A stretch of DNA of 64,000 nucleotides from Pseudomonadota bacterium (GTDB lineage: Bacteria > Pseudomonadota > Gammaproteobacteria > Xanthomonadales > SZUA-38). Under the pieces are notes generated by a model. That model was not told the origin of the DNA. It saw only the letters and a program-made list of their open reading frames with translations, and made no database searches. Positions 15,177 through 43,894 of the stretch are shown here, one piece after another. The number at the start of each line of letters is the position of its first letter. Within the stretch, counting starts at the first letter, position 1. Location: positions 139,220 through 203,219 of the forward strand of contig JBCDKA010000001.1 of assembly GCA_038747195.1 (NCBI GenBank), given 5' to 3'. The translations under genes were made by a program, and so were the position numbers.

Positions 15177-15249
15177 GGCTCCTTTGTTTTACCACAGGGC
15201 GCTGCGAACGTCAGGAGCTTTACCCGCTCATCGGGAGCTTAACTCCCGG

Positions 15250-20180: not shown

Positions 20181-20318
20181 CAGGGACGACGGTGGTCAAC
20201 AGCAACCGTCATTGTATTTCAGCGGGTGTTTTTGGATGGTTAAACTATGTATCGGCTGGCGCCGCCTGTCTCTGAATCAACCACGCCGGTCCAAAAAGCA
20301 AAAAGGGGTCAGCCTATG

Positions 20319-23795: not shown

Positions 23796-23818
23796 TGTGG
23801 ACTCCTTCAGCGAATCGC

Positions 23819-24945: not shown

Positions 24946-25085
24946 GACCGGAGGTTAGCAGTAATGCTGAATGCGCGCATCCGGGCTCGGCGCCGCCGGA
25001 CAGTCGCCGGCAATCGATTTGACGAGTCCCGGCTGGCGCGCTTAGCTTGTCGTTGATTCCGCGCGGAAACGAGTAGGTCCAAGCC

Positions 25086-25475
25086 ATGCATCAAGTTGTT
25101 GAGTATTCCGCCAACATCGAGGCACAGCTGGATATTCAGGAGCTGGTCAATGTCCTGCACCAGGCGGCCGCCGACTGTGGGGTCTTCCCGCTCGCCGGGA
25201 TCCGAACCCGCGCTGAGCGGCGCGACTGCTACCGCATTGCCGACGGGCATCCTGACAACGCGTTCATCAACGTCTACGCGAGGATTGGGCCTCGCCCGTC
25301 CTCAGAGCGGAAGCAGGCCCAGGATTTTATCTTCGATCGGCTGCAGGCCTTTCTCGCGCCGATTTACGAGTCGACGCCGCTGGCCGTGTCGATGGAAATG
25401 ACGGAGCTTCCGGAGGATCGGGAAAAAACGGGCAATATTCGCAAGTATCTGGCGCAGCGCGGCGTCCAGAGCTGA
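25086..25475 (+). CDS. 5-carboxymethyl-2-hydroxymuconate isomerase-like protein (HpcD/HpaF family) lacking Pro-1
   Basis: EYSAN, GVFPLAGIRTRA, IADGHPDNAFI; divergent from hpaR; begins MHQVV rather than MPH. Confidence 0.85.
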   Translation: MHQVVEYSANIEAQLDIQELVNVLHQAAADCGVFPLAGIRTRAERRDCYRIADGHPDNAFINVYARIGPRPSSERKQAQDFIFDRLQAFLAPIYESTPLAVSMEMTELPEDREKTGNIRKYLAQRGVQS

Positions 25476-25504
25476 CGCCAGGATGGCACTGTCGTCGTGA
25501 TCGC

Positions 25505-26944: not shown

Positions 26945-28495
26945 ATGGATCCTCAGCATCAGCAGCTGCAACAGCGTGCAGCACAACTCATGAGCATGGG
27001 CAACGTCAGCGGTGCCGGCGAGCTGCTTCAAGAAATGATTAGCCGCTATCCACAGGACTGGCTGTCGGCGGTGCAGCTGGCGGAAATCTATCAGTCTCAG
27101 CAGCGTTTCGACGCCGCGCTGAAGCTTGTTGATCAAGCCTTGGCCATCCAGCCCGACAACGCCAAGCTGATCGCCAAGTACGGCCTGATCGCCCAGCAGG
27201 CCGGCCAGCCGCGTCTGGCGGTGGACGCTTATCAGCGTGCGCTCCGGCGCGCACCGTCCCAGTTTGCCCACCTTCACTTCAACCTGGGCAATAGCTTCTA
27301 CGCCCTAGGAGACTTTGAGTCGGCTGCTCAAAGCTATGAGACGTTTCTCGCGGGCAAGCCGGATCACGTCAACGCGCGCAGCAACCTCGCGATGGCGCTG
27401 GAGCGACTGTTTCGCTTTGACGACGCGGCCGCCCAATGGGAATCGCTCAACGAAGCTGAGCCCCACGAGTCGCGCTGGGCTGTCCTGCGTGCGGCGTTGG
27501 AGCTGAAGCGTGAGAGTCTCGAGGCCGCCGATCAGGCGCTGGAAATCGCTGCGACGCGCGGAGCTGACGATGAGACCTATTTGCTCAATCTTGCTTCCCT
27601 GCGTTTCGAGCAAGGTCGTCATCAGGAGTCTCTTCAGGTCCTCGATCGGCTGGCGGCTAAGACGGGTGGGGCGCCGCAGGACCCGGGCGCCCAGCGGCTG
27701 CGCTTTCTCAACGACTTCCAGGCGGGCCACTACCCCAGCTGCCTGGATCAGGCGGATCAACTGGTTGCCGGATCGAACCGGGAAACCGCGATGATCGTGC
27801 TGTCGCTCCTGCCCCAGGTCTGGCTCGAGTCAGGCGAGGGGGAACGGGCCAGGGAAGCGCAGCGATTCTCTGAGCTGGTTCAGCGGTCGCGTCCTTCGCT
27901 TGATCCAGTGATTTTTCCTGCGCTGGAGGAGCAGATTCTGTGTCATCCGAGTCTCGAGTTTGAGCCGGTGACCACGTCGACCCACAACGGTAGTCAGACT
28001 CAGTCGCTGCTGGTGCCCGGCAGCAGCGAGATCGATGCGCTGCTGGCTCAGCTGCGCTCGGCCGCCGTCGCCCAGGCGAGTCTCATTCGCCGGACCGACA
28101 CGCGCTATGGTTCGCTGCTGCCCGAGTCGGGCCGAATCAAGATGTGGGCGGTGACGCTTTCAAGCGGGGGATTTCAGGGTTCGCACATGCATCCTCACGG
28201 GGTGATCAGCGGTGTGTTCTACCTGAAGGTGCCCGTCGGTGATAACCCGGATGAAGGGGCGCTGGAGCTGGGTTTTCCGGAGCCAAAGTTTCAGCTGAGT
28301 ACGCCGCCGCTTACCTCGCTGCAGCGCGTAGTCACCGGCGACCTCGTGTTGTTCCCGTCCTGGTATTTCCACCGGACGCTCCCGTTCTCCTCAGAAGAGC
28401 GGCGGATCAGTATCGCTTTTGACGTGGTGCCGCCTGACAGCCCGGAGTGGCATGACCCAGGGCTGTCCGACGTTTTCAGTCTAACCGCGTCCTAA
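26945..28495 (+). CDS. TPR-repeat protein with C-terminal putative 2OG-Fe(II) oxygenase domain
   Basis: TPRs (HFNLGNSFY, ARSNLAMAL); GGFQGSHMHPHGVISGVFY, LVLFPSWYFHRT, RISIAFD; AAGGA before ATG. Confidence 0.85.
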   Translation: MDPQHQQLQQRAAQLMSMGNVSGAGELLQEMISRYPQDWLSAVQLAEIYQSQQRFDAALKLVDQALAIQPDNAKLIAKYGLIAQQAGQPRLAVDAYQRALRRAPSQFAHLHFNLGNSFYALGDFESAAQSYETFLAGKPDHVNARSNLAMALERLFRFDDAAAQWESLNEAEPHESRWAVLRAALELKRESLEAADQALEIAATRGADDETYLLNLASLRFEQGRHQESLQVLDRLAAKTGGAPQDPGAQRLRFLNDFQAGHYPSCLDQADQLVAGSNRETAMIVLSLLPQVWLESGEGERAREAQRFSELVQRSRPSLDPVIFPALEEQILCHPSLEFEPVTTSTHNGSQTQSLLVPGSSEIDALLAQLRSAAVAQASLIRRTDTRYGSLLPESGRIKMWAVTLSSGGFQGSHMHPHGVISGVFYLKVPVGDNPDEGALELGFPEPKFQLSTPPLTSLQRVVTGDLVLFPSWYFHRTLPFSSEERRISIAFDVVPPDSPEWHDPGLSDVFSLTAS

Positions 28496-30591
28496 CGGCG
28501 GTTGCCGCCGGCGGCGTCGGTGAGCAGCATCGCAATTTGGCTTCCGGGGGCTGCCTGATTCAGCGGCGTGCGCTGGGTTCTTAGCTCCCGATCGTAGTCT
28601 CCCTCAAGCAGTGGGTCTGCGCCGCGTTCGAGCAGCAGGCCCACCAGGGCGGCGTTGTTGCTCCAGACCGCGTTGATCAGCGGCGTATCGTCGCCTTCTA
28701 CGTGAGCGTTCACGCCCGCACCGGCGTCCATGAGAAGGGCGGCTAACTCCAGGTGTCCGCCCCGGGCAGCGTTGATGAGCGCGTTACCATCGCCACGCAC
28801 CGCCTGATTGACGTCAGCGCCGGCGGCCAGCAGCGCGCTGGCGGTGGCCACATCATTGCGCCTGGCTGCATCGATCAAGGCGGTGCCGTCACCGCTGACA
28901 GCCTCATTGACGCTGGCTCCCGCTTTGAGCAACAGGTTCGCCACGTCGTCGTGGCCGTGGCGAATGGCCAGCATCAGCGGCGTGCCGTCCCCATCAAAGG
29001 TCACGCTCGGATCGACACCGGCATCCAGCAGCAGCTCGACAATTTCCACGTGACCGCCGACGGCCGCGTGGAATAGGGCCGATTCGTCGCCGTTGCTCCA
29101 AGTGTTGGGGTCTGCTCCTGCCGCCAACAGCAGCTCGACGTTCGCGGCCTGGCCGTGGCGAGCGGCGGCGATCAGCGGGGTACCATCACCGTTCATCTGT
29201 TGCCCGGCATCGGCGCCGCGGGCGAGCAGTTCGGTGATCACCGCGGCCGGCGCCCGCCCGCTGGCGGCGATCAAAGCGCTTTCGTCTTTATGATGATGGA
29301 AGTCCACCCGGGCACCGGCGTCCAGCAGCGCAAACATAACGTCCCAGTGGCCGCGCCGAGCAGCGGCGACAAGTGGCGTCCGCGGATCGCGGCGTCCGTT
29401 CACCTGTTCGGGGTCTGCACCGCCGGCCAGCAGCTGTCGGGTTGCCGCAAGATCGCCCGCCCAGGCGGTAAACAGCAGCCCGTCATCAGCCCGCGGCGTA
29501 CGGTCGCGACTGACGTTCAAGGAAACCGCAGCGCCCACCGCTTCTCTCGCGCTGATTCCCAGGTTGACCCACTGGGGCGCGGCCAGCGCCGCGCCGGCAA
29601 AGACGATGGCGGCGGCTGCGGCGGTAAGGCGTCCAGCGCGCAGCGTGGAGTGGCTCTTCTTGACGTCCAGCATGTGTGAAATTCTCCGTCGTAGATGGTT
29701 TTTGGAGCGCAGGCAGGGGATGGCCAATTCCGGCGGCCGGCCTGGCAGCAGCGACGCCGCCACCGAGAGCAGGCTCGATGCGTAGCGTTGCGGCGAGGCC
29801 CCCAAGGAAAGCGCCCAGTCGTCGCAGGCGGCTTCCCGCTCGGTGTTCATTTGGCTGATGACGTACCAGATTCCTGGATTGAAGCTGAACGCCACGCGTG
29901 CGCCGAACTGCAGCCAGACCCACCAGTGATCGCCGCGCTTGATGTGCGCGAGCTCATGGGTGAGCGCGTGACTGACCATCGATGAGCTCGCCTGGGTTTG
30001 CCAGGCCGTTGGGAGCACGATCATCGGAGCTAGCGTCCCGACAGTCTGCGGTGAACCGACCTCCGAACTGAGCCTGACGGTCACCGTACGAGACATGCCC
30101 ATGCGCCGTGCCAAGGTGTTGGCCTTTTGAACCAGATCGTTGGGGGCCCAAGCAGATCGACGGCGCAGGTCCCGGTTGTACCTGAGAGCGCGCAGCAAAA
30201 GCGTCAGCTGCAGGAGGGCGCCGAGAAGCCATGCCGCCGCCAACCACCGACCGAGGCTACCCGCTTGGGTTGCCGTTGGACGGGTCGCCGGGGTTGGTAT
30301 CGAGCCGGAGTCGGTCCTGGCGGCGACCTTGGCGGTCGACTCCCCAGGTGGCGTCGCCACCATCCGTTCGGTGGTGGGTGTCGACGAGCGTACCTCCCAA
30401 TCAGAATCAGGCCAGGCCAGCAGCAGCGGCATCGCGAGCAGCATGACCAGCACCAGTGCCCAGCTGGCGTGCCGGGCCGCGGCACTGTCATAGCGGCTCA
30501 AGGCCAACGCCAACGACACCGCGATAATGAGGCCCGTGCTGAGCGCCAGGTGATGGATCAGCAGGTCGGCTACAAACCCTGTCTCGTTCAT
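28492..30591 (-). CDS. BlaR1-like M56 membrane metallopeptidase with C-terminal ankyrin repeats
   Basis: TM segments, HELAHIKRGD, FNPGIW, EREAACDD, LRRRISHML; about 9 ankyrin repeats (TPLVAAA, GDGTPLIAAA, GDGTPLMLAI, GDGNALINAA, GDDTPLINAV). Confidence 0.92.
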   Translation of the reverse strand: MNETGFVADLLIHHLALSTGLIIAVSLALALSRYDSAAARHASWALVLVMLLAMPLLLAWPDSDWEVRSSTPTTERMVATPPGESTAKVAARTDSGSIPTPATRPTATQAGSLGRWLAAAWLLGALLQLTLLLRALRYNRDLRRRSAWAPNDLVQKANTLARRMGMSRTVTVRLSSEVGSPQTVGTLAPMIVLPTAWQTQASSSMVSHALTHELAHIKRGDHWWVWLQFGARVAFSFNPGIWYVISQMNTEREAACDDWALSLGASPQRYASSLLSVAASLLPGRPPELAIPCLRSKNHLRRRISHMLDVKKSHSTLRAGRLTAAAAAIVFAGAALAAPQWVNLGISAREAVGAAVSLNVSRDRTPRADDGLLFTAWAGDLAATRQLLAGGADPEQVNGRRDPRTPLVAAARRGHWDVMFALLDAGARVDFHHHKDESALIAASGRAPAAVITELLARGADAGQQMNGDGTPLIAAARHGQAANVELLLAAGADPNTWSNGDESALFHAAVGGHVEIVELLLDAGVDPSVTFDGDGTPLMLAIRHGHDDVANLLLKAGASVNEAVSGDGTALIDAARRNDVATASALLAAGADVNQAVRGDGNALINAARGGHLELAALLMDAGAGVNAHVEGDDTPLINAVWSNNAALVGLLLERGADPLLEGDYDRELRTQRTPLNQAAPGSQIAMLLTDAAGGNRR

Positions 30592-30974
30592 GGCGTGTCC
30601 TCGTCCTGTTCGATCATTCGCCGCAGGCGGTCGATCTCGAGCGCATCGACATCATCCGAGCTGAGCAGGTTTTGCACCAGCGCCGTCGGGGATCCTGAAA
30701 AAAAGCGGCTCATCAGGTGCTTCAAGGCTCGACCCTGGGCCGTGCTGCGATCGATCAGCGGCTCGTAGACAAAGGCGCGGCCTTGCTTTCGGTGGCTCAG
30801 GTAACCTTTCTCGGCAAGAATCCCCAGCATGGTCTGCACGGTGTTGTAGGCAACGGGCTCCTGCCGATTCAGCTCATCGGTAACGTCTCGAACCGAGGCT
30901 TCGCCCAGGGTCCAGACAACATCCATGATGCGCAGCTCACCGTCGGTCAAAGTTTGAGATTTCTGTCGAGCCAT
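30588..30974 (-). CDS. BlaI/MecI/CopY-family repressor
   Basis: LTDGELRIMDVVW, SVRDV, AYNTVQTML.IL..KG, FFSGS; ATGA overlap with the M56 gene. Confidence 0.93.
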   Translation of the reverse strand: MARQKSQTLTDGELRIMDVVWTLGEASVRDVTDELNRQEPVAYNTVQTMLGILAEKGYLSHRKQGRAFVYEPLIDRSTAQGRALKHLMSRFFSGSPTALVQNLLSSDDVDALEIDRLRRMIEQDEDTP

Positions 30975-31155: not shown

Positions 31156-32055
31156 TCAGCCGGTGATTTCAAACGCCAGGCTGCGGATTGCCGGCGCTTC
31201 TTTTCTCAGCTTCTCAAACGCGTTGAGCTGACACTCGGCGTCCACCTTCAGCGATGGCAGGAGGTGTCCGTCCGGCTCGAAATCTCGTTGATGGGTGACG
31301 GCAAAACACATCCGGGTGGCGTTGGCGACCACCAGCGTGACCGGCTCCTCGTCGGGGACGAGCGCAGCAGCCTTTTGACGGGCAATGGCGGCACACAAGA
31401 CGTCGGGCAGGCGCCAGTGCTCGGCAAGCTGCTGGCTGATCTCAACATGCCCAAAGCCGCAACATTGTCGGAGTGCGTCGTTGAGTGCCAGGTCTCCGTC
31501 AGCCTGCATTAACGCGATCGCGCGGGCCAGATCCTCGGGGCGGTTTTCGACCAGCCACAGAATGCCCAGCCGAGCCAGCAGCGCGGCGGTGCGGGCTGAC
31601 TCTCGGGACTCCGGAGCCAAAGGCTCAGCGAGCAGGTAGCCCGCATCAGCGGCCAGGAGAGAGCTCGCCCAGAACCGGATCGCGTTAAAGCCGCTGACCG
31701 GGACGGGACGGAAGGGCTGGGAGACGGCCATGGCCACCCCAACGGTTCGAATCATGTTGAGTCCGAGCCTCCGGCAGGCGAGCTCCAGCGACGTGACCGG
31801 CACTGCTGGCGCTGACCAGGCGGAATTCGCCAGCGCCAGGATCCGGCCGGCGATGACCGGCGCTTTCTCGATAACGCCCGGCAGGCTTCGGGCGTCGAGC
31901 TCCGGATCGGATAACCGGTTGACCAGATAGCCCGACGCGGGAAGAAGCGCCGGCAGGCTCGCCGTGCTCACCATCGGCATCGGCTGCGTGTCGGCGGACT
32001 TAGCCGGTTGCGCCGACATGGATCGCCTGGCTGCGAACATCGTCGGTCCGCTCAT
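31156..32055 (-). CDS. Stand-alone HDOD domain protein
   Basis: [45 protein letters not shown]; start uncertain (32055, 32019 or 31980). Confidence 0.85.
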
Positions 32056-35000
32056 TGATCTGTTTGACAGCCTCCGGCACTTCTGCCGCGCTGACCGGCC
32101 GCGAAAAATAGTAACCCTGGATCTGATCGCAGCCCAGCGCTGACAGTGCTGCCACCTGATCTCGATCTTCCACCCCTTCGGCCACTACCGAGAGCTTTAG
32201 CCCTTTCGCCATGCCGATGATCGACCCCATCATGATGGCGTCGCCGGGGTTGTGCATCATGTCGATGACAAAAACGCGGTCGATCTTCAGCGTGTCGATC
32301 GGCAGCTTTTTCAGCGAACCCAGCGACGAGAAGCCGGTGCCGAAGTCGTCAATGGCGATGCTGACGCCGAGTTCGCGCAGCTGCTCCAGTACCGGTAGCG
32401 CGAAATCCGCTCGCTGGACCGCTGCTTCGGTGATCTCGAGCTCAAGCTGCGAACAGGGCAGCCCCGAATCCTGCAGGGTTTGCTGGACCGTATTGACGAA
32501 CCCGGCCTTCAACAGATGGGTGGGTGAGATATTCACCGAAACTACCAGTGAACCGAGCTCAGTCTCGGCCCAGGCCTGTGCCTGGATACACGCCTGTTTC
32601 AGCACCCGTTCGCCGAGCTCACCGAGCAGTCCAAGCCGCTCCATCTCATCGATAAACAGTGCTGGGGAAACGAGGCCATGATGTGGATCGTCCCAGCGCG
32701 CGAGCGCTTCCAGGCCGCAGACCTGGCCGGTGGCCAGATTGATCTTCGGCTGGTAGTGGAGGAGGAATTCATCCTGTCGCAGCGCCCGGCGCAGACGAAA
32801 CTCCATCGACATCCGCTGGGCGACTCGGTCCGTCATCTCCGGCTGATAGAAGGCAATTTCGCCCGCGTCGCCCCGCTTGCGGCTGACCTGGAGCGCGGAG
32901 TCCGCGGCCTTGAGCAGGTCGAAGGGCGTTGCGCCGTCGTCCGGAAAGCGCGAGATGCCGACGCTGATCGTCGGCTCCAGCTGGGTGCCGTTGATGTCCA
33001 GCGGCTGGCAGATCCGGCGGCGGCAGTCCATCGCGAGATGGGCGGCGTCCATGGGACTCTCCAGCGGGTCGACGACAATACAAAAATCGTCTCCCCCGGT
33101 GCGCGCGGCGAAGTCTGTCGGCCGCAACATCGTTCGGAACAGGCCTGCTACGGTTGCGAGCACGGTGTCGCCGGCTTCAAAGCCCAGCGCTTCGTTGATG
33201 TCGCGGAAGTTGTCCAGTTCGATGACCAGCAGCGCAAACGGCGTGTTTCCGTTCGTGGCCATGCGATCCGAAAGCGTCTTCAGAAGCTGGCGGCGGCTGG
33301 CCAGGCCCGTGAGCGGATCAAATGACGCGAGACGCTCAATTTTCTTTTCCGTTTCTCGCCGGTGGGTGACGTCGCGGACGGCGCCCAGCACAACCAGCGA
33401 GTTATTGGGGTTGGTTTCCAGCGCCTGCTCGACCTCCACCGGTGCACCGCCGGGCGGCAGCAATCGATAGCACAGCGTGGCGCCCGCGCCTTTGGCCCGG
33501 TCGTAGCGAAACGACGCCTCGACGCGATCACGGTCTTCAAAATGTACGCGACGTAGAAACTCAGAAAGCTCTATCGTGCGATCGGCTTCGGGCCAGCCGC
33601 AGAGCTTGGCCAGATGGGCGGACACGCTGAGCTGGCGGGATTCGATGTCCCACTGCCAGTAGCCCATCTCGGCGATTCGCTGGATGTTGCGGAACTGCCC
33701 CTGCTGCTCGCGCAGCAGCGCGTCGTTGCGCGCAGACCGCAGGATAAAACGCAGCTGCTGACACAGCAGCGAATACTGGAGCGGCTTGTGCACAAAAGCG
33801 GCGGCTCCCGCCTGAAACGCCGATTCGATCGCGTTGGCGTCGTTCAGTCCGGTCATCATCACCACCGGCAGGTTTTGGAAACTTTCGCGCTCACGCAGAG
33901 CGACGCACGTTTCGAAGCCATCCATGCCCGGCATCTGCGCGTCGAGCAGCACAAGATCAGGATTCAGCTGCTTTTGCGCAGCCAGAGCCTGCTTGCCGCT
34001 GTGGAAAGCGCTGACGCGATAACCTTCGGCGGTCAGGACGTCATCCAGCGACATCCGGAAGTTGGCGTCATCGTCGATGACCATGACAACCGGCTCCGGG
34101 GGGGACGCCTCGTCAGCAGGCACAACGGATGCCGCCATGCCGGGATCTGAATGCCGGTCACCGGGGGTCTGCGGCGTGGCTGCAACCACCGCCAGCTCAA
34201 CCTTAGGGGCCGGAACGGAATCCGTGTTTAGCGTCAGGGCGATCGCGGCTGACACGCTGCCGGCGAGCGCTTGAAGTCGGCCGGCCTGTTCATGGCACTC
34301 GGCCAGGTGGTCTGCCGATGCAGCTTCTTCCAAGGTCCGACAGACCGCAGCAAATTCTTCGGCGCCGACGTTTGCCGAGCTGGATTTGAGGCTATGGGCG
34401 ATGTCTTTCATTGCGCCGCAGTCATCGTTGGCGGCAGCGACACCGAGGAGCTGCATCTGTTCGGGCAGAAACGCCAGGAATCGTCCCAGGACGCGCTCTA
34501 CCACCGTCTCGCCGCCGGCCTGCCGGAGGTTTTCCAAGGCCTCCCGCTGCAGCGTGGGTGGCGCCGAAGATTCCGATGCCTCTCGAGTAGCGGTCGGCGC
34601 CCAGCGCCGTACCTCGGCCCCGAGTTTTTGCTGATCGAAGGGTTTGCTCAGGTACCCGTTCATGCCGGCATCCGCACACTGCTGCTCGATGCCTTTCTGA
34701 ACGTCGGCCGTGAGCGCAACAATGGCGACCGGTGAGTCGCTGTGCTGCTGTTCATGCCGGCGAATCTGGCGCGCGGCCTCAAACCCATCCATGCCAGGCA
34801 TGTGGCAGTCCATCAGGATCAGGTCATAGCGGGTGGTTCTGGCGGCAGCAACCGCTTCGTGTCCATCGTTGGCCACATCTGCTCGGCAGCCCAGCGTCTC
34901 CAGCATGGCGAGCGCAACTTCCTGATTGACCGGGTTGTCCTCTGCCAGGAGCAGGTGCAGCGATGGAAATGCCGGGTCGTTGGCCGGCACCTGTTCCTGC

Positions 35001-36970
35001 GACGCGCTGCCAGTGGTGTCCGGCAAGTGCTGCAGCAGGCCAGCCAGCAGCGTATCTTGCCGCACCGGTTTGCTCATATGCCGGTCGATCCCGGCCGCTT
35101 CGATTCGGCTGCTGGGTATGTCCTGCACCGAGGAACTGAGCACAATCAGCGCGGCCGGCGGGATCTCCGGATCCGTCCGGATGTTTCTAGCCAGGCTCAC
35201 GCCATCGGTGTCTGGCAGGTGCCAATCGAGCAAGATGGCGTCATAGGGGCTGCCCGAGCGGGCCGCCGACTCGACCTTCTCCAGCGCGGTTTCGCCGTTG
35301 ACGGCGACGTCCGGGAGCATGTCCCAGGCGCTGACCTGTCGCTTGAGAATGTCCAGATTAGTCTGCTGATCGTCCACCAGCAAAATTCGTCGGCCTGCCA
35401 GCGACTCGGGGTCAAGCGGATTGTCGCTCTGCGCCTGAGCTGTGTTCAGCGCGATGGAGAAGCTAAAGCAGGCGCCTCGACCCGGCTCGCTAACGACTCT
35501 TAGATGCCCGTCCATCAGTTCGACGAGCTGTCGGGAGATCGCCAGCCCCAGGCCGGTGCCGCCAAAGGCGCGAGACGTAGAACCATCAGCCTGCGAAAAC
35601 GATTCAAAGATCAGCTCAGCCTGCTGCGGATCGATGCCGATGCCGGTGTCACTGACGGCAAAAGACAGCGTCATCTGCCCGTTTGCCTCGTCTACTCCCG
35701 TTTCCAGGATCAGTTTCACCTCTCCCGTTTCGGTGAACTTCACGGCGTTGCCGAGCAGATTGATCAAAATCTGTCGAAGCCGGATGCTGTCGCCGGTCAC
35801 CCAGAGCGCCCCCGGGCGGTCGACGTCAGTGATCAGGCTGAGGCCTTTACGCGCTGCCTGCTCGGCCATCATTTCCATGACGTCGTCGATCAGCACGCGC
35901 AGGTCAAAGTCCTGCTGGCTCAGCTCCAGCCGACCGGCCTCGATCTTGGAGAAATCCAGAATGTTGTTGATGACGCCGAGGAGGTTTTCCGCCGAGCGAT
36001 AGGCGGTTTCCGCCAAATGTCGCTGGCTGTTGTTGAGCGACGTGCCAAGCAGCAGCTCGTTCATGCCCAAAACGCCGTTCATGGGGGTGCGGATCTCGTG
36101 GCTCATCGTTGCCAGGAATTCGCTCTTTGCCTGACTGGCGGCCTCGGCAGATTCTTTGGCTTCCTGCAAATCGACGGTGCGCTCGTGAACCGTTTTCTCC
36201 AGCGAATCTCGATGCCCCGCCAGCTCCAGATCGCGGTCGAGAATCTGCGTCAACATCTCGTTGAACCCGCGCACCAGCTGGCCGATTTCGTCCTGCCCGT
36301 CGTTTTTCACCCGCAGCGTATAGTCGTTTTCGGTCTTTACGCGCGCCATGCCGTCAGCGAGATTGTGGATCGGCCCGGTGATCCGCCTGGCGAGCCTTGT
36401 AGACAGCCAGTACACCAGGAGCAGCAGGCCGCCGATCACGGCACCGAGCAGCTGCGCAAAGCGGGTGAGCTGCTCATACATCGGGGCCATATTGGCCTCG
36501 ACGTACAGTGAGCCGATGACCTCCGTGTCTCGGCTTACCGGCGTCAGCATTTCCAGGTGACTCATGCTGAAGGAGTACTCGAAGCCCGCGTCCGAGCGCT
36601 GCCAGCCAACGGTTTGATCGATTGCCGAGAGGTTGCCGTCTGCCAGCGCCACAAACGGTGTACCGTCAGCAAACATCAGTTGTGCGTTCGCGATCATGGG
36701 TTCGGCGGCGAGCGCACTCAGCACGCGCGAAGCGGTGTCGGGATCTTCGAAAGACAGCGCTGCGCTGGAGTTGGTGGCGACGACATCCGACACCACCGAT
36801 ATTCGATCCAGGAGCGAACTGCGGTAGAACGACAGCTCCATGTACGCGTAGATCGCCGCGCCGCCGACCAGTACACCGGCGCTGACGCCGAAGATCATCC
36901 AGCGGATGCGCGCGGCGATCGACAGGTTTGCTAATACGCCGGAAAGGCTCCGGCGCCGCTGCTGGGTCAT
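32000..36970 (-). CDS. 1656 aa hybrid sensor: CHASE8-like-HAMP-HisKA-HATPase-REC-REC-Hpt-REC-PAS-GGDEF(degenerate)-EAL
   Basis: Two TM helices around [50 protein letters not shown]; receiver Asp motifs [67 protein letters not shown]. Confidence 0.93.
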
Positions 36971-37533
36971 TTGTCGCCCCCCACCACGGTCGAGAGCTCA
37001 AGCAGCGGTGCGGCGATCAGAAGATCGGCAGCAAGCGCGGCGTTGCGGTTGATCAGGAAGCCGAAGCGATTTCGATCTTTTCGGATTTCAATCATGCCGC
37101 CGCCGTAAGCAAAGGCTTCGGCGTCGCTGATGGTGAGGGTCGGCTGATCACGCGTTAGCTCGAGCGCCGACTCCAGATCCTCGACGTTGTCGACGAATAA
37201 CAGGTGGCAATGGTCCGCAACGGGTTCGTCCCGGCTCAGCTCATAAAGCGTTATTGGACGCCCTGCAGCCTGACGTTCCGATAAGGAAGCGAGTGCGCCT
37301 TCTAATGGATTTTCTCCGTAGCCGCAGACATTGAAACGTCCTTCGTCGTCTACCGAGAATGCTTCCTCGGGCCAGGTGACGTAGGCCATGATTTTGTATA
37401 CCAGCGCTGCCTTCAGGGTGTTTTCTGGCTGCGGTGCATCGTTGCCGTAGGCTGATTCGGTGAACAGCACCGAAAGCAGTAAAACCAGACCGGCTCGCCT
37501 GATCCCGGGGGCATTGGCTTCGGAGCTCATCAT
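36967..37533 (-). CDS. YfiR/HmsC-family periplasmic protein (DUF4154)
   Basis: Signal peptide; [38 protein letters not shown] overlap with the kinase gene. Confidence 0.88.
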
Positions 37534-37545
37534 GGGGCGCAGGCC

Positions 37546-39543
37546 TTATTGCCAGCGCATTCTTAGCTGCAGGTACATCATCCGTCCGATATCGGAGGCC
37601 GGCGTGAATGTTTCGCCTAAAAACTCGAATCGGTTCCCGAGCAGGTTCTTGCCCGAAAAGAGCACTTCGAGGCTGTCGTTTTGCCGCCAGGTCAGCGAGG
37701 CATCCAGCCCGGTATAACTCTCCGGGCGGAGCGACGCCGCGAGTTCTGACCCTGGTACGATGGATGCCGGAAGCGCGTCGACGTACTGGCCGCGAACATG
37801 AAGAAACCAGTTGTCGCTCAGGGTCAGATCGCTATCGATGGTCAGCTGATGAGGAGCAGTGTCTGTCGGCAGTCCGGCGAAGACAGTTTCGTTTTGTCCA
37901 CCACTAGCAGGCTCGACGTCGAGGTCGATATAGGTGTAGTTACCGCTGAGACGCCAGCGGTTCATGACCTGCCAGGATAGTGCTGCCTCAAAGCCGTCCG
38001 ACTGTCCCTTGAGATTGTTTCCGAGCGCGAGATCAAGAAGAGGTGGGCGACTTGGCGGAAGCGATAGCCGCGTGCCAATCAGGTCGCGGTATTCGTTGTG
38101 GAAGGCCGTCAGGTCGAGCGACAGCCCGTTGCCCGCCGTAAACCTATAGCCGAACTCAATAGCCATGAGGTTGACAGCACCAAGGTCCGGGTCGCCGAAA
38201 AGCGTATTCGTCGGCGGTGTAAGCAGAAAGGTGCCGTCCTGCTCAGCGCGCGAGGGTGTGCGGACCGCTCTGGCGATGCTTCCCCACACGGTATGCTGAC
38301 CGTTCGGTTGCCAGACCATACGGAGATTGGGCTGATACTCAAATCCAGAGAAGGCGTTTCGATCAAACTTGGAGCCAACGATCATTCGGGTTGTTTCACC
38401 CAGCGTAATTTCGCTTTGCACAAAGGCGCCGTAGTGACTGACCGATCTTTGGCTAGGGTCGAGCGCAAGCACCCCGGCGCTTGTGATGTCGTCTCGAACG
38501 TGCCGATAGCTCAAGCCCCACAGCAGCTCCTGACGTGCGCCCAGCGGCCGGCGATGCTGAAAGTCCAGATCGAACGTGTTGTGGCGCTGTTTGATGAGCG
38601 ATTCGTTGCGGTTCATATGGTCGAAATACGCCTGGACCGAGAAACTCTCGTTTTCATCCAGTGTGCGGGTCCAGCGGGATAGTAGATTCCCACCCTGAGC
38701 CTCGTAGTCATTGAGGAAGGTGTTCGTTCGAATCAGGCCCTCCTGCTGTCGGCCCTTGATGTCATAGCTGTCGCCCTGCAAGGTCCAGGTATCGCGGTCG
38801 GTCGGCTCACTGTCGACTCGAAATCCCACGCGAGCGTTGTCCCAACGCTCATTTGTGTCCTGGTTCGTCAACAGGTTCTCGAACCCCTCGTGCTCGGTGT
38901 ACTTCGCGTAGACCCGGCCGAAGGTCCGGTCTCCAAGCTGCGCCCCATAACGAACGCTGCCGCCGGCTCGTTCCCGGTTGCCGGCGCCAGCAACCAAAAG
39001 GCTACCCTGGGTTTCGGCAGCGCTGCGGGTGATGATATTGATAACGCCGTTGACGGCGTTCGGGCCCCACAGCGTCCCGCCCGGACCGCGGATCACCTCG
39101 ATACGGTCGACGTCATCCAGCAGCGTGTCCAGCTCGTCCCAGTAGACGCCTGAAAACGACGGAACGTAAACGCTGCGGCCATCGACGAGCACCAGCAACT
39201 TGTTGGTGTAGCGCCCCGAAAAGCCCCGGATACTGATGGCCCACTGGGAGGCGTTGATCCGCCCAACGTGAACGCCGGGAACGCCTCGCAAAGCTTCGGC
39301 GATGGTTGTAATGCCCCGCTGACGAATCGAATCGCCCGTGACAACAAAAGTCGCTGCCGCGGTGTCACCCAGCGCCTCGTTTTTGCGCGAAACCGACGAG
39401 ACCTCGATGGACAGCAGGTCTTCGAGCGGTAGATCAAAAAAATCTTCGGGTCCTGCCGTCCCCTGTGCCTGAACACCCGCACACATCAGCGTCCCCACCA
39501 GCGCTGCTATCAGTGGTTGGCATCTCAAAGCAAAAATCCTCAC
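37546..39543 (-). CDS. TonB-dependent receptor
   Basis: Signal peptide; LEDLLSIEVSSVSRK; plug ISIRGF..NKLLVLVDGR, RIEVIRGPGGTLWGPNAVNGVINIIT; aromatic C-terminus MRWQ. Confidence 0.95.
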   Translation of the reverse strand: MRIFALRCQPLIAALVGTLMCAGVQAQGTAGPEDFFDLPLEDLLSIEVSSVSRKNEALGDTAAATFVVTGDSIRQRGITTIAEALRGVPGVHVGRINASQWAISIRGFSGRYTNKLLVLVDGRSVYVPSFSGVYWDELDTLLDDVDRIEVIRGPGGTLWGPNAVNGVINIITRSAAETQGSLLVAGAGNRERAGGSVRYGAQLGDRTFGRVYAKYTEHEGFENLLTNQDTNERWDNARVGFRVDSEPTDRDTWTLQGDSYDIKGRQQEGLIRTNTFLNDYEAQGGNLLSRWTRTLDENESFSVQAYFDHMNRNESLIKQRHNTFDLDFQHRRPLGARQELLWGLSYRHVRDDITSAGVLALDPSQRSVSHYGAFVQSEITLGETTRMIVGSKFDRNAFSGFEYQPNLRMVWQPNGQHTVWGSIARAVRTPSRAEQDGTFLLTPPTNTLFGDPDLGAVNLMAIEFGYRFTAGNGLSLDLTAFHNEYRDLIGTRLSLPPSRPPLLDLALGNNLKGQSDGFEAALSWQVMNRWRLSGNYTYIDLDVEPASGGQNETVFAGLPTDTAPHQLTIDSDLTLSDNWFLHVRGQYVDALPASIVPGSELAASLRPESYTGLDASLTWRQNDSLEVLFSGKNLLGNRFEFLGETFTPASDIGRMMYLQLRMRWQ

Positions 39544-39668
39544 GAGCTGGCCTCGTTAAATCACCAAACCGTATATCGACCGCGAGGTGGCGTCCTTTAG
39601 GATCGCTTGCGATACTCGCGGCATCTCACGGAACCCTGGGAACGGCCGGGAAAAGAGGGTATAGGGTC

Positions 39669-40589
39669 ATGAGGGAGGTGATTGAGCGGCTGACGGTTCC
39701 GGCAATAGCGGCGCCGATGTTTCTGGTCTCTGGACCTGAGCTGGTTCAGGCGACCTGCGAGGCCGGTGTGATCGGGGCGTTTCCGTTTCCCAACGCCCGT
39801 ACGATAGACACCCTGGACGAATGGCTCGGTCGGCTCAGCCACGCGCGGTCGCGCCACCCTGATTCAGCGCCGTTCGCGGCTAACATCACCACACACCGCT
39901 CTTACGACAGGCTGAATTCGGAAATTGATCTGATCAGCCGACACAAACCGCCGATCGTAATTACCGCTCTGGGCAGTCCAGAGCCGGTGGTCGACACGGT
40001 GCACGGCTATGGCGGTACGGTAATCGCTGATGTGAACTCGGTGAGCCTCGCACGTAAGGCTGTCGCCAAAGGCGCTGATGGGCTCGCGCTCGTGTCGGCG
40101 GGCGCCGGTGGACATACTGGCTTTCTCACGGGCTTTTCGTTTGTCAGCGAGGTCCGGCGGTTTTTCGACGGGCTGGTGGTGCTGGCGGGAGGTATCGGAA
40201 CCGGTCAGGCCATCCGGGCTGCTCAGGCGCTTGGCGCTGACCTTTGCTACATGGGGACGCGGTTTATCGTGGCTGAGGAAAGCCTGGCCAGCGACGAGTA
40301 TCGGGACATGGTGGTGGCCGCAACGGCGGAGGATCTCGTGCTCAGCGACAAGCTGACCGGAGCGCCGGCCTACTATCTGCGCGCCAGTCTCGAAAAGATG
40401 GGGCTGGATCCGAATAATCCGGGGCAGCGGTCCGGTATGGACCTGTCAGACTCTCAGGGCCAGATCAAAGCCTGGAAGCACGTATGGTCGGCGGGCCACG
40501 GGGTAGGGTCGATTCACCGGCGTCAGTCGGCCGCGGAGATTGTGGCCGAGCTGCGGCAGCAGTATGACGAAGCTCGCGCCGTCCGCTAA
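39669..40589 (+). CDS. Nitronate monooxygenase/FabK-like flavoprotein
   Basis: AAPMFLVSGPEL, ITALG, GAGGHTG, LAGGI, YMGTRFI, WSAGHGV. Confidence 0.9.
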   Translation: MREVIERLTVPAIAAPMFLVSGPELVQATCEAGVIGAFPFPNARTIDTLDEWLGRLSHARSRHPDSAPFAANITTHRSYDRLNSEIDLISRHKPPIVITALGSPEPVVDTVHGYGGTVIADVNSVSLARKAVAKGADGLALVSAGAGGHTGFLTGFSFVSEVRRFFDGLVVLAGGIGTGQAIRAAQALGADLCYMGTRFIVAEESLASDEYRDMVVAATAEDLVLSDKLTGAPAYYLRASLEKMGLDPNNPGQRSGMDLSDSQGQIKAWKHVWSAGHGVGSIHRRQSAAEIVAELRQQYDEARAVR

Positions 40590-40595
40590 AGTCGG

Positions 40596-42023
40596 CTAGC
40601 TGCCGGCCATCTCCTGGCTGTTGGCCCAGGTGCCGTGAAATCCTAGCGGCACCCGCTGCGGGAGGTGCACCCGGGCTACCGGCCCGGCCGCCATGTCTTT
40701 GGCGTCAAGGACGAGCAGCGCTGAGGTGTCATCCACTGTGTTGGTCACGATGCTGACGACATAGCCGTCGTCTTCGGCGGCAGCGTTTTTTCGCGGTGCG
40801 AAGGCAGGCTCCGAGCCATAGCAGTTCAGCGGAAAACGGTAGGTCTCGCCGGTCTTGGTTTCAAAATCAAACTTCATTACGCCGTCAAAAATCTGGGTGC
40901 TGGTGTCGGGGATCGTCGCCAGGTAGCTATAGCGGCTAGCCTTGCCGGTGTGCCCAAGGTTAATGACCGGAAACTCACTGACCGTATCGTCGAGCTGGGT
41001 CTCGCGGGTTTCGCCGGTCTTCATGTTCATGCGCCACATGTAGATATGTGCGCGAAGAGCGAGCACGTCCACCATCCCGGCATACGGGCCAAATCGATCG
41101 TCCAGTGGCCGACCGTTGTCGAGAAATCGGCATGCGGTCATAACCACCTCGTCGCCTTCCTCCCAGGCGTTGATCACGTGGTAGATGTAGCAGGACTCGA
41201 ACTCAAACCAGCGAATTTCGCCGCCACCGCCGTTTCGCGGCAGCACGCCGAAGCGGGTGTTGAGCTTCGGATCAAAATGAATGTTCCATCGTTTGGCCTT
41301 CAGGGCCTTGTCGGTAAGGACCACCGGCAGATCCATCAGCACCGCGTAGTTCTCGGTGATCGCCATGTCGTGGGGCAGACGGGGACCGGGCAGCTCGATA
41401 TCCGTGAAGTGGGTAAGCCGGTTGTCGCTCGAGACTACGCCAAAGCTGTAACGCGGTTCGAACAGCTGGTAGTCGAAAAACAGAAACTCGCCCGTGGCGG
41501 GATCCACCTTCGAGTGGGCCGACACGTTTTTGGGCAGTTTGCCGCCGAAGGTTTCGGTCCGGATGGTGTCCAGCGTGCGGGCATTCAGCCGCACCGGCTG
41601 ACCGCTCACGTACCAGAGCGCCATCAGTTCGCCGTTGTGAACGAGGATGTCGGTGTTAGCCGTGTCCTTATAGGTGGTCGGTGACCCGTCGGATGTGGCC
41701 GGGTACATGATCCCGCCTTTCTCCAGGTGGCCGGTCCGATCGGCTTCAAAGTCCGCGCTCACCACGTAGCGGTTGACGTAGCGGGCCTGTCCGTTCTCCA
41801 GATAGACACCGTGCACCATACCGTCGCCATCAAACCAGTGATGCATACCGCTCGGCATCGCGAGGGGGTTGGGCCCGTTGCGGAAGTAAGCACCCGCAAA
41901 ATCTGTCGGGAGCTCCCCGGTCACCCGGAGTTCGCTGATATCGAGCTCGCGCTCAACGGGGCGGTAGGGTCCCTGGAGGTAAGGGTTGTAGCTGTTCAGG
42001 TCCAAAGCGGGCTGACTGGCCAT
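40596..42023 (-). CDS. Carotenoid/stilbene cleavage oxygenase (RPE65/CCO family)
   Basis: NPYL, YFRNGPNP, HWFDGDGMVH; four iron-ligand His (SAHSK, LPHDM, IYHVIN, GFHG); EFPVIN, EDDGY; AGGAG RBS. Confidence 0.93.
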   Translation of the reverse strand: MASQPALDLNSYNPYLQGPYRPVERELDISELRVTGELPTDFAGAYFRNGPNPLAMPSGMHHWFDGDGMVHGVYLENGQARYVNRYVVSADFEADRTGHLEKGGIMYPATSDGSPTTYKDTANTDILVHNGELMALWYVSGQPVRLNARTLDTIRTETFGGKLPKNVSAHSKVDPATGEFLFFDYQLFEPRYSFGVVSSDNRLTHFTDIELPGPRLPHDMAITENYAVLMDLPVVLTDKALKAKRWNIHFDPKLNTRFGVLPRNGGGGEIRWFEFESCYIYHVINAWEEGDEVVMTACRFLDNGRPLDDRFGPYAGMVDVLALRAHIYMWRMNMKTGETRETQLDDTVSEFPVINLGHTGKASRYSYLATIPDTSTQIFDGVMKFDFETKTGETYRFPLNCYGSEPAFAPRKNAAAEDDGYVVSIVTNTVDDTSALLVLDAKDMAAGPVARVHLPQRVPLGFHGTWANSQEMAGS

Positions 42024-42172
42024 GAGGTGAACTCCTGGATAACGACCAATGTTTTGCCCGATTATGTCGTAACTTGCATAAACAAACCAACTTCCCCTAG
42101 CATCCAGGGCAATGGGTTGGGCACTGACGCTGTATTCGGCGGATCTGACCCTGCACAACCGAGGAGAGCAGC

Positions 42173-43870
42173 GTGGCCACACCGTATTTCGACCAACACC
42201 AACACACGCTGGCCGCGGCGATTGCGGCCTGTGAGAGTCGGGAATACTGGAGCCCCTTTGTCGAATCGCCCAGCGCGCGTCTGCATCCCGACGGTGCACC
42301 GGAGGCCGGAAAAGCCGCCTTTGAGGCCATGCTTGGCCAACCTTTTGAGCTGGACCAGCCCGGAGAGATTGGGCGCACCGGCGCCGAAATCTCTCCCTAT
42401 ACGCAGCAGCCCCTGGGTATCAGCTATCCAAAGTGCGATGTAGAAGCACTTTACGCTGCGGCCCAGACAGCGTTGAAAGCCTGGAAGAAAGTGCCCTGGC
42501 AGGAGCGAGCCGGCCTTTGCCTGGAGATGGCTTTCGCGCTGGAGAAACAGGCGTTTGCCAACGCCCACGCCACGATGCACACAGCGGGGCAAGGTTTTCT
42601 TATGGCGTTTTCCGGCAGCGGCGCCAACGCGCTGGATCGTGGCGTCGAGGCCGTTGCTTACGCGGCCAAGGCGCTGCAGGAAGTCAGGCCGACCGCGCGC
42701 TGGAGCAAATCGTTCGGTCGGGCCGGCGAGGTCACCTTAAGCAAGACTTATCGAACCGTACCGCGTGGCGTGGCCGCTGTCGTCTGCTGCGCAACTTTCC
42801 CCTTGTGGAACGCCTATCCCGCGCTATTTGCCAATCTTGTGACGGCTAATCCTGCGATCCTCAAACCCCACCCCAACGGCATTTTGCCTGTCGCAATGGC
42901 GGTGAGGGTGTGCCGCGAAGTGCTGGCACAGGCCGGTCATGACCCGAATCTGGTGCTGATGGCGGCCGATACCGCCGACGATCCGATCACAATTGAGCTC
43001 CTGGAGCACCCCGCTTGCGCCATCGTCGACTACACGGGGTCGCAGCGCTTCGGACACTGGATCGAAGAAAACTGCCGGCATGCGCAGGTGTTCACCGAAA
43101 CCGCGGGCTGCAACGGCGTCGTCGTAGAGTCCACCGACAATCTGGATGGGCTGATCAACGGCCTGGCCAACGGGTTCTGCGGGTTTTCGGCCCAGATGTG
43201 CACCAGCCCACAGAACGTTCATGTGCCGGCAACCGGGATCGAGAGTGACCAGGGGCACCTGACCTTTGAGGACTTCGGTCAGCGGCTGATCGCAGCGATC
43301 CGGAATCGGACCGAAGACCCGCTTCACGCGTCCCGCCTGTGCGCCGCAATCCAGGCTGACCAGTCCCTGAACGTGCTCGAGTCCGTGGCGGCTGGCGTGC
43401 AGCAGGCCGGTGGTGCGATCGGACTGCCAAGTCGTCCGTACGTTCACCCCGACTTTCCCGATGCCCGCACCGCAACGCCGCTGGTTTGTCTGGTGACGCC
43501 GGCGCAGCGAGCGTTGTATCAAGAGGAGCACTTCGCGCCGGTGGCGTTTCTCATCGAGGAGCCGGATGCGGAGTCAGCGCTTACACACGCGGCAGACAAC
43601 GCGCAGCGGTTCGGTGCCATCAGCTCCTATGCGTACAGCGCAAATCCGGCGTTTCTGGCGCAGGCGCAGGAGGCATTTGCAGACGCCGGTGCGTCGCTCT
43701 GGTGCAACATGACCGCGCCGATGCCCATCAACTTTGCCGCCGCCTACAGCGATTACCACGTGACGGGACTCAATCCGGCGGGCAACGCTTGCCTGACCGA
43801 TCTGGCGTTTGTGGCCGATCGGTTTCGAATCATTCAGTTTCGCGAGCCGGTAGATCCGGCGGCGGCGTGA
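42173..43870 (+). CDS. paaN: PaaN-like aldehyde dehydrogenase-fold protein
   Basis: EISPY..LGISYP, MHTAGQGFLMAF, CATFPLWNAYPALFA, ILKPHP, YTGS, QMCTSPQN, AAYSDYHVTGLNPAGNA; GAGGAG RBS, GTG start. Confidence 0.85.
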   Translation: MATPYFDQHQHTLAAAIAACESREYWSPFVESPSARLHPDGAPEAGKAAFEAMLGQPFELDQPGEIGRTGAEISPYTQQPLGISYPKCDVEALYAAAQTALKAWKKVPWQERAGLCLEMAFALEKQAFANAHATMHTAGQGFLMAFSGSGANALDRGVEAVAYAAKALQEVRPTARWSKSFGRAGEVTLSKTYRTVPRGVAAVVCCATFPLWNAYPALFANLVTANPAILKPHPNGILPVAMAVRVCREVLAQAGHDPNLVLMAADTADDPITIELLEHPACAIVDYTGSQRFGHWIEENCRHAQVFTETAGCNGVVVESTDNLDGLINGLANGFCGFSAQMCTSPQNVHVPATGIESDQGHLTFEDFGQRLIAAIRNRTEDPLHASRLCAAIQADQSLNVLESVAAGVQQAGGAIGLPSRPYVHPDFPDARTATPLVCLVTPAQRALYQEEHFAPVAFLIEEPDAESALTHAADNAQRFGAISSYAYSANPAFLAQAQEAFADAGASLWCNMTAPMPINFAAAYSDYHVTGLNPAGNACLTDLAFVADRFRIIQFREPVDPAAA

Positions 43871-43894
43871 TGGCGCCACAATGAGGACCCTTCC

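What the first reader, a model, noticed from the sequence alone, without database searches (positions are those of the whole stretch)
31156..39543. TonB-dependent receptor-YfiR-hybrid kinase/EAL-HDOD operon: candidate trans-envelope signalling system
Seen: four tightly linked minus-strand genes (12 nt gap, ATGA overlap, abutting or overlapping HDOD). Established: in YfiBNR/HmsCDE the periplasmic YfiR inhibits the CHASE8-HAMP cyclase YfiN and is titrated by the OM lipoprotein YfiB. Here no YfiB is present, a TBDR with no evident N-terminal signalling extension takes its place, and the output is a phosphorelay plus phosphodiesterase. Inference: ligand binding or import at the TBDR is relayed by YfiR to the kinase to change c-di-GMP, a route distinct from FecA/FecR/FecI signalling. 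I recall similar gene trios in other genomes but no mechanistic characterisation.
Basis: partly seen in the sequence, partly recalled or inferred. Interest (0 to 1): 0.72.

Follow-up and report, generated by a model that had tools for sequence, protein, structure and literature searches.

The report
Receptor tail likely docks YfiR repressor
Four linked genes encode an outer-membrane receptor, a small periplasmic YfiR-type protein, a membrane kinase/c-di-GMP enzyme and an HDOD protein; the receptor carries a short conserved tail, found almost only on YfiR-linked outer-membrane proteins, that likely captures YfiR and so would relay a surface signal to c-di-GMP, a common but untested design.

Summary
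Observation confirmed: TBDR, YfiR-like, CHASE8-HAMP hybrid kinase with REC-GGDEF-EAL, and HDOD genes are tightly linked on the minus strand, with no YfiB. The layout is common. Of 182 YfiR loci fetched, 121 have an adjacent TBDR, 13 have YfiB and none has both.

One correction: the receptor does have an N-terminal element, a roughly 15-residue acidic amphipathic helix abutting the TonB box. In this genome, 1 of 40 plug-bearing ORFs has it at that position. It tracks YfiR at genome level, sits on TBDR lineages that do not form one clade, recurs on an unrelated COG4313-type barrel beside YfiR, and survives as a stand-alone signal-peptide mini-ORF in two genomes. TBDR-YfiR co-folding gave weak support only (ipSAE 0.38, best control 0.00; no interface given).

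Best model (0.55): the helix replaces YfiB, sequestering YfiR from the CHASE8 sensor. Ligand and output direction are unknown. YfiB-less YfiR-sensor pairs are published (Malone 2012) and NCBIfam models both proteins, but my searches found no paper on the TBDR link. This scan noted the trio, and the tail, on other genomes before. Verdict: new variant of a known kind.

The parts
37546..39543 (-). TonB-dependent receptor, 665 aa (signal peptide about residues 1-26, plug, barrel); related to NCBIfam TOL_0244 family but below its cut-off
   Evidence: Pfam Plug + barrel; NF053590 594 bits against cut-off 645; AF2 model pLDDT 92, best Foldseek matches Cir, FepA, PirA, BtuB
39403..39447 (-). Conserved acidic amphipathic N-terminal motif (residues 33-47; family consensus D-L-x-x-L-S-L-E-x-L); candidate YfiR-docking element
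   Evidence: short helix in the AF2 model at pLDDT about 66
39391..39414 (-). TonB-box-like strand (about residues 44-51), overlapping or abutting the end of the motif
   Evidence: profile positions 21-22 onward align with Cir and BtuB residue 9 onward; that BtuB residues 6-12 are its TonB box is recalled
36967..37533 (-). YfiR-like periplasmic protein, 188 aa, non-YfiB subtype: keeps the C70/C109 pair, lacks the second cysteine pair of canonical YfiR
   Evidence: PF13689; NF053591 80 bits against NF053586 26 bits; family profile hits P. aeruginosa YfiR structures at E 5e-18
32000..36970 (-). Inner-membrane CHASE8-HAMP-HisKA(H291)-HATPase-REC(D582)-REC(D721)-Hpt(H859)-REC(D1010)-[PAS-like, no Pfam hit]-GGDEF(GGDDF, non-canonical)-EAL(intact)
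36749..36763 (-). AALSF motif in CHASE8 (residues 70-74), equivalent to the YfiR-binding AAVVF of YfiN
   Evidence: AAVVF described in PMC3375315 passages
31156..32055 (-). Stand-alone HDOD protein (likely start 32019); genus-level accessory gene
   Evidence: PF08668; directly downstream of the sensor in 4 of 182 fetched loci, all same-genus

Best explanation
This operon is likely a YfiB-independent partner-switching relay, in which the receptor's short N-terminal helix would bind the periplasmic YfiR protein and so release the CHASE8 sensor kinase that YfiR is predicted to repress. Shown: the genes, the domains, the helix motif and its co-distribution with YfiR, the retained YfiR-binding motif on the sensor, and intact phosphorelay and EAL residues. 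Inferred by analogy to YfiBNR: YfiR represses the sensor through its conserved hydrophobic pocket, and the helix competes for the same surface. Inferred by analogy to other TBDRs: ligand binding frees the TonB-box region, which here carries the helix, so YfiR is pulled to the outer membrane, and TonB engagement of the adjoining strand could reset it. The kinase would then pass phosphate REC-Hpt-REC3 within one polypeptide and tune the GGDEF-EAL module, most likely its phosphodiesterase. The ligand and the sign of the c-di-GMP change are unknown.
For: (1) Exclusivity: of 182 YfiR loci, 121 have an adjacent TBDR, 9 a nearby TBDR, 4 a small barrel, 13 YfiB and 35 none; 0 have TBDR plus YfiB. (2) The motif scores above 9 in 111 of 116 linked TBDRs (training set, so circular), 21 in the held-out window protein, and at least 12 in 72 of 76 out-of-sample metagenome TBDRs; 49 of 53 of those with enough flank have YfiR in the locus. 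(3) Controls: 1 of 40 plug-bearing ORFs in this genome has it at this position. In about 400 class-level genomes, all 46 with a helix-covering match are among the 57 with YfiR. Among 41 relatives with every candidate scored, 12 of 14 YfiR-positive and 0 of 27 YfiR-negative genomes have it. (4) Portability: an AU test rejects one clade for motif-bearing TBDRs (p 0.00026). The motif caps a COG4313/FapF-like barrel at 4 YfiR loci, while 26 of 27 unlinked homologues of that barrel score under 5. In two genomes only signal peptide plus motif remains upstream of yfiR. (5) Co-folding: weak support, ipSAE 0.38 against best control 0.00, contacts agreeing at 56% or more, partner pLDDT 77 or more. The mark was reached by 116 of 157 solved complexes and 2 of 215 mismatches, but at 0.60 or under by only 18 of the 157 and by both mismatches. 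(6) A family member, T. oleivorans TOL_0244, has the motif and is expressed, sevenfold higher on n-C28 than on Tween 80.
Against: No experiment. The complex score is in the range the tool calls more often wrong than right unless the guess was likely beforehand, and no interface was returned, so helix-YfiR contact is not localised. Mutual information between TBDR and YfiR columns (161 pairs) did not exceed shuffled pairings (max z 6.1 against 4.0-6.0). 35 of 182 YfiR loci have no recognisable outer-membrane partner nearby, and for several of those genomes none was found elsewhere (insensitive search). The motif on a non-TonB barrel and on free peptides argues against a ligand/TonB switch being essential. 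The motif is low in complexity: a NusA helix scores 18. The GGDEF is non-canonical in the window, but GGDEF is kept in 4 of 6 orthologous fusions, so the output is ambiguous.
Confidence: 0.55

Rival explanations
1. The helix binds YfiR, but not as a ligand-gated switch. It is a constitutive titrator or envelope reporter: the amount, assembly state or proteolytic release of the barrel's tail sets how much YfiR is free, so the system reads receptor expression or outer-membrane biogenesis rather than an external ligand.
For: The same motif sits on a small barrel of the COG4313 fold, which is not a TonB-dependent type, and on stand-alone secreted mini-ORFs in G156 and G591. Some genomes hold many motif-bearing TBDRs away from YfiR loci (9 matches in G651 and 8 in G734, each with 2 YfiR).
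Against: The great majority of carriers are intact TBDRs with a conserved plug, and the motif is placed exactly against the TonB box. The mini-ORFs may be decaying remnants (the G156 copy has a Leu-to-Pro change in the helix). Many receptors per YfiR also fits a many-ligands, one-relay model.
Confidence: 0.22
2. There is no protein contact. The TBDR imports a small molecule that YfiR or CHASE8 binds in the periplasm, and the helix serves TonB coupling or folding only.
For: YfiR resembles a periplasmic ligand-binding-protein subdomain (PMC4655355 passages). The receptor has an ordinary transporter fold. No covariation signal was found.
Against: This does not explain why the helix is missing from 39 other plug-bearing ORFs of this genome at that position, absent from YfiR-negative genomes, and gained by an unrelated barrel beside YfiR.
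Confidence: 0.15
3. The helix contacts the CHASE8 sensor or another envelope protein directly, or the receptor is merely a co-regulated output of the kinase, with YfiR acting alone on the sensor.
For: Every test of co-distribution with YfiR is also largely co-distribution with the CHASE8 sensor. The helix-CHASE8 pairing was not folded (only one complex job was available).
Against: 18 of 111 well-flanked TBDR-linked loci have no CHASE8 gene detected in the fetched stretch but keep the TBDR-YfiR pair. TBDR-YfiR scored above all three controls.
Confidence: 0.08

Closest known systems
YfiBNR (TpbB/DgcN; Yersinia HmsCDE, name recalled)
   Same: Periplasmic YfiR-family protein upstream of a CHASE8-HAMP inner-membrane sensor that keeps the AAVVF-type YfiR-binding motif; a third, outer-membrane component; link to c-di-GMP.
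   Different: No OmpA lipoprotein YfiB; a TBDR with a short helix instead. YfiR lacks the C145-C152 disulfide pair (present in 13 of 13 YfiB-type, not among the common residues of the 130 TBDR-type) and has a different first helix. Output is a fused phosphorelay plus GGDEF-EAL, not a lone GGDEF.
YfiB-less YfiR-YfiN pairs described in silico by Malone et al. 2012 (PMC3375315)
   Same: Divergent systems lacking yfiB, with histidine kinase, Hpt or GGDEF-EAL outputs and conserved YfiR-binding residues (passages).
   Different: [quoted passage not shown]
NCBIfam TOL_0244 (NF053590) and TOL_0243 (NF053591) families, Thalassolituus oleivorans
   Same: Best NCBIfam hits for the receptor and YfiR-like protein; TOL_0244 has the same N-terminal motif and TOL_0243 is YfiR-like (supplement rows).
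   Different: The window proteins fall below both equivalog cut-offs. The paper (PMC6304351) treats TOL_0244 as a possible alkane importer and does not mention YfiR in its main text.
Cell-surface signalling, FecA/FecR/FecI type (features recalled)
   Same: A TBDR whose periplasmic N-terminus would pass a surface signal inward.
   Different: No STN signalling domain, no anti-sigma or ECF sigma gene in the operon; a 15-residue helix and a soluble repressor acting on a kinase instead.
OmpS of Alcanivorax dieselolei (Wang and Shao 2014, known here only through citing papers)
   Same: A TBDR reported to sense alkanes and trigger signalling; reported as 40.3% similar to TOL_0244.
   Different: Whether OmpS has the motif or a yfiR neighbour was not testable; the paper is not held.

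Membership tests
YfiBNR | Periplasmic YfiR-family (PF13689) protein | tested here: met
   PF13689 E 3e-32; profile hits YfiR crystal structures
YfiBNR | Canonical YfiR: NF053586 cut-off and second disulfide (C145-C152) | tested here: not met
   26 bits against cut-off 85; Ala142/Glu149 at the two Cys columns
YfiBNR | CHASE8-HAMP sensor with the AAVVF-type YfiR-binding motif | tested here: met
   AALSF at residues 70-74; Phe invariant
YfiBNR | Output is a lone GGDEF diguanylate cyclase | tested here: not met
   hybrid kinase-Hpt-REC-GGDEF-EAL, GGDDF motif
YfiBNR | OmpA-domain lipoprotein YfiB in the operon | tested here: not met
   no OmpA hit in the operon genes; 0 of 130 TBDR-linked loci have one
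YfiBNR | YfiR represses the sensor and is sequestered by an outer-membrane partner | tested here: inconclusive
   weak co-folding pass for TBDR-YfiR only; repression needs experiment
TonB-dependent receptor | Plug plus large beta-barrel | tested here: met
TonB-dependent receptor | Functional TonB box | tested here: inconclusive
   a box-like strand aligns to the Cir/BtuB N-terminus, but its first residues are replaced by the helix end; the genome has 8 TonB_C matches
FecA/FecR/FecI cell-surface signalling | STN N-terminal signalling domain on the receptor | tested here: not met
   only Plug and barrel families hit; mature chain has about 33 residues before the plug
FecA/FecR/FecI cell-surface signalling | Adjacent anti-sigma and ECF sigma genes | tested here: not met
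   neighbours are YfiR, kinase, HDOD, a BlaI/M56 pair and a divergent nitronate monooxygenase
NCBIfam TOL_0244 / TOL_0243 equivalogs | Curated score cut-offs (645 and 125 bits) | tested here: not met
   594 and 80 bits: same wider family, not the equivalog

The most novel reading that the evidence does not exclude
The helix is a portable 'YfiR-docking tag' that turns any outer-membrane barrel into the input of a YfiR/CHASE8 relay. This tag-based route, not YfiB, is the ancestral and majority mode of YfiR signalling in Pseudomonadota: a third general way for TBDRs to signal across the envelope, gated by competition between YfiR and TonB for the receptor's N-terminus, with several receptors able to feed one kinase.
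Probability: 0.35. Interest if true: 0.88.

Novelty: new variant of a known kind. Interest (0 to 1): 0.64.

Why it matters
YfiBNR is studied as a three-part system, yet in this sample YfiB accompanies only 13 of 182 YfiR loci while a TBDR accompanies 130. Malone et al. 2012 noted that many YfiR-sensor pairs lack YfiB and left their input open. A 15-residue candidate docking motif makes that question testable with a synthetic peptide and one small soluble protein, including in a cultured organism where the genes are expressed (T. oleivorans TOL_0244/TOL_0243). If true, it adds a TBDR-to-kinase/c-di-GMP signalling route distinct from sigma-factor cell-surface signalling.

Tried and rejected
Inter-protein covariation (161 TBDR-YfiR pairs, MI-APC): no signal above shuffled pairings. 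Expression in this organism: no RNA holder listed, which is no evidence either way. Promoter/terminator scan: 1 promoter-like site against 2.3 expected and 11 terminator-like sites against 7.7 expected, uninformative. A 22-position motif profile over 10 genomes whose YfiR locus lacks a TBDR found distant motif-bearing TBDRs in 2 (G331, G519) and the mini-ORF in G591, but missed a known one in G011, so blanks there mean little. The own-genome COG4313-type homologue (C18) lacks the N-terminal motif; its score of 14 is an internal match. The one OmpA-domain ORF among 77 metagenome loci is MotB-like, not YfiB. Rejected: that HDOD is a core part (4 of 182 loci directly downstream, all same genus); that the region is foreign DNA (GC 0.60-0.63 like its flanks); that the aromatic-catabolism neighbours name the ligand (I did not test their conservation beyond the genus). 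Literature searches that found no paper on the TBDR-YfiR link: (listings only; the library lacks most subscription papers, and bioRxiv supplements are closed).
Full report
OBSERVATION. The four minus-strand ORFs are present as described: TBDR 39543-37546, YfiR-like 37533-36967, a 1656-aa signalling protein 36970-32000, and HDOD 32055-31156. Spacing is 12 nt, a 4-nt ATGA overlap, and a 56-nt overlap to the first HDOD ATG; orthologue starts point to the ATG at 32019. Pfam gives Plug + barrel; DUF4154; CHASE8, HAMP, HisKA, HATPase, three REC, Hpt, GGDEF, EAL; and HDOD. The stretch before GGDEF looks PAS-like to me but has no Pfam hit. The genome (89% complete) has one YfiR and one CHASE8 protein.

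CATALYTIC CHECK. H291 (SHEIRTP), D582, D721, H859, D1010 and the EAL motifs (EAL, DDFGTG, EGVE) are intact. The cyclase motif reads GGDDF, with Glu at the first metal-ligand position. Four of six orthologous fusions keep GGDEF, so phosphodiesterase activity is likely and cyclase activity is uncertain. The sensor has AALSF where YfiN has the YfiR-binding AAVVF (PMC3375315 passages). That Phe is invariant in 106 of 106 TBDR-linked sensors.

NEIGHBOURHOOD SURVEY. PF13689 was found in 14 of 41 relatives, 95 of 401 phylum-level genomes and 57 of 400 class-level genomes. I listed 213 strong matches, leaving out the 13 weakest rows and 3 as well as the window's own. I fetched 182 of them, from 137 genomes; the 31 dropped were contig-edge or redundant same-genus or same-genome loci. 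With profiles built locally (YfiB seed checked as OmpA), 121 have an adjacent same-strand TBDR (105 upstream, 9 downstream, 7 after the sensor), 9 a TBDR nearby, 13 YfiB, 4 a small barrel and 35 none. No locus has both TBDR and YfiB. Among 159 well-flanked loci the table is 0/12/111/36 (Fisher p 2e-7, overstated because kin are not independent). All 12 well-flanked YfiB loci have CHASE8-HAMP-GGDEF; TBDR loci have kinases, hybrids, GGDEF-EAL or GGDEF. HDOD directly follows the sensor in 4 loci, all same-genus.

THE N-TERMINAL MOTIF. Aligning 116 linked TBDRs showed a conserved acidic amphipathic segment just after the signal peptide (window residues 33-47; L43 94% conserved), followed by a TonB-box-like strand. 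The strand aligns with the Cir and BtuB N-termini, and no solved TBDR matches the helix positions. In the AF2 model (pLDDT 92 overall) the segment is a short helix at pLDDT about 66 ahead of an ordinary plug and barrel. I found this motif before consulting earlier scan notes (precede).

CONTROLS FOR THE MOTIF. Of 40 plug-bearing ORFs in this genome, only the window receptor has it at that position (score 21, held out of training); one other scores 12.7 much further upstream. In the class-level sample, 46 genomes have a match covering the helix and all 46 are YfiR-positive. The 17 YfiR-negative genomes with any match align only from position 15 or later. Caveats: many linked receptors were in the profile, at most 16 candidates were scored per genome, and one of the 17 negatives, G039, is unpublished data. 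Among 41 relatives with all candidates scored, 12 of 14 YfiR-positive and 0 of 27 YfiR-negative genomes have it. Out of sample, 77 metagenome loci were chosen by plug-region patterns and ranked by similarity to the window receptor: 72 of 76 scorable receptors score at least 12, and 49 of 53 with 600 nt or more downstream have YfiR in the locus. This samples the main clade only. The motif is low in complexity (a NusA helix scores 18), so its position after a signal peptide is part of the definition.

PORTABILITY. With the motif removed, linked TBDRs need three label changes on a 103-row tree (69 of the linked receptors plus 34 from this genome). On a 20-row subset chosen after seeing that tree, the AU test rejects one clade (p 0.00026; long branches are present). 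Its model is a barrel matching COG4313 (4rl8) and FapF. In the phylum sample, the 3 YfiR-linked copies carry the motif, and 26 of the 27 other fetched homologues score under 5 (27 of 57 other matches were fetched). In G156 (same genus) the TBDR gene has collapsed to a 123-codon ORF keeping signal peptide and motif. In G591 (another family) a roughly 76-aa signal-plus-motif ORF sits upstream of yfiR. These may be functional titrators or decaying remnants.

YFIR SUBTYPE. TBDR-, small-barrel- and partner-less YfiRs share a K-A-A-aromatic first helix and lack the second cysteine pair that all 13 YfiB-type YfiRs have. In P. aeruginosa, YfiB binds a conserved C-terminal surface by strand pairing with beta7 and by inserting Met59 into a hydrophobic pocket that overlaps the proposed YfiN site (PMC4655355, first part and passages). 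The equivalent columns stay hydrophobic here, so a leucine-rich helix plus strand is a plausible substitute. That step is inference.

COMPLEX PREDICTION. Full-length mature TBDR with YfiR, each as a 115-row alignment, gave weak support: ipSAE 0.38 against best control 0.00, contact agreement 56% or more, partner pLDDT 77 or more. The mark was reached by 116 of 157 solved complexes and 2 of 215 mismatches, but at 0.60 or under by only 18 of the 157 and by both mismatches. No interface was reported. Covariation gave nothing above shuffles.

MECHANISM. The best reading (0.55) is partner switching: YfiR holds the CHASE8 kinase off, and the receptor's helix, exposed when the TonB-box region is freed by ligand, captures YfiR. 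The kinase then relays phosphate to REC3 and tunes the EAL domain. Rivals are a ligand-independent titrator or envelope reporter using the same contact (0.22), import of a ligand without contact (0.15), and contact with another partner or mere co-regulation (0.08). The first two readings share helix-YfiR binding (0.77 together). The ligand is unknown. The only functional hint is that T. oleivorans TOL_0244, which has the motif, rises sevenfold on n-C28 against Tween 80, and YfiR-like TOL_0243 was detected at a low, non-significant level (PMC6304351 passages and supplement rows).

RELATION TO WHAT IS KNOWN. It works like YfiBNR but fails membership on YfiB, on the canonical YfiR features and on output. 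It fails FecA-type membership on the STN domain and the sigma/anti-sigma genes. Malone et al. 2012 described YfiB-less pairs with kinase or GGDEF-EAL outputs but do not mention TonB in the main text or the held supplements. NCBIfam has separate TOL_0243 and TOL_0244 models, which suggests curators have seen the pair; all 115 aligned YfiRs hit NF053591. Eight paper searches (listings only) showed no study of the link; subscription papers are largely missing, and Wang and Shao 2014 was not held (seen only through PMC6304351 and PMC5174103 passages). This scan has 95 earlier findings in at least 86 genomes with the words YfiR and TonB-dependent receptor, several noting the tail. They are not independent evidence.

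VERDICT. A real, widespread and experimentally untested variant of YfiBNR with a specific, cheaply testable docking hypothesis. This window's particular features are the single-chain phosphorelay-to-GGDEF-EAL fusion and the HDOD add-on. New variant of a known kind; interest 0.64.

Noticed in passing
L059:6480-6851 (G156, same genus) and L092 about 265 nt upstream of the YfiR match (G591): The TBDR is replaced by a mini-ORF of signal peptide plus motif (123 aa and about 76 aa) upstream of an intact yfiR-sensor pair; several deletions in G156 keep the frame for most of the ORF.
   Followed up: partly
L126, L174, L215, L218: A roughly 355-aa COG4313/FapF-like barrel subfamily carries the same motif beside YfiR; 93 of 113 full-length close homologues score at least 12, and their neighbourhoods were not checked.
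   Followed up: partly
G022, G651, G734, G779: Genomes with 8-10 matches to the receptor N-terminus profile, many away from any YfiR locus; possible many-receptor input to few relays.
   Followed up: no
L133, L209, L211, L221: YfiR domain fused directly to a histidine kinase in one ORF.
   Followed up: no
window 28492-30974 (-): BlaI/MecI-type repressor plus a peptidase M56 fused to many ankyrin repeats, 181 nt downstream of HDOD; similar DNA lies downstream in the three same-genus loci compared that cover it, as far as the unlabelled blastn output shows.
   Followed up: no
window 24478-26830, 39465-45121: Aromatic/lipid catabolism neighbours: MarR regulator, homogentisate dioxygenase, nitronate monooxygenase (divergent), RPE65-type oxygenase, aldehyde dehydrogenase, thiolase.
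   Followed up: no
window 54500-56233 (-): MFS transporter with two C-terminal TFIIB-type zinc ribbons.
   Followed up: no
window 12004-23918: Ser/Thr kinase-TPR gene and two roughly 1200-aa minus-strand proteins, one with Ig/cadherin repeats and one with weak beta-propeller/TSP3 hits.
   Followed up: no
G000:C18:31158-32243: Own-genome homologue of the COG4313-type barrel without the N-terminal motif; serves as an internal control.
   Followed up: yes
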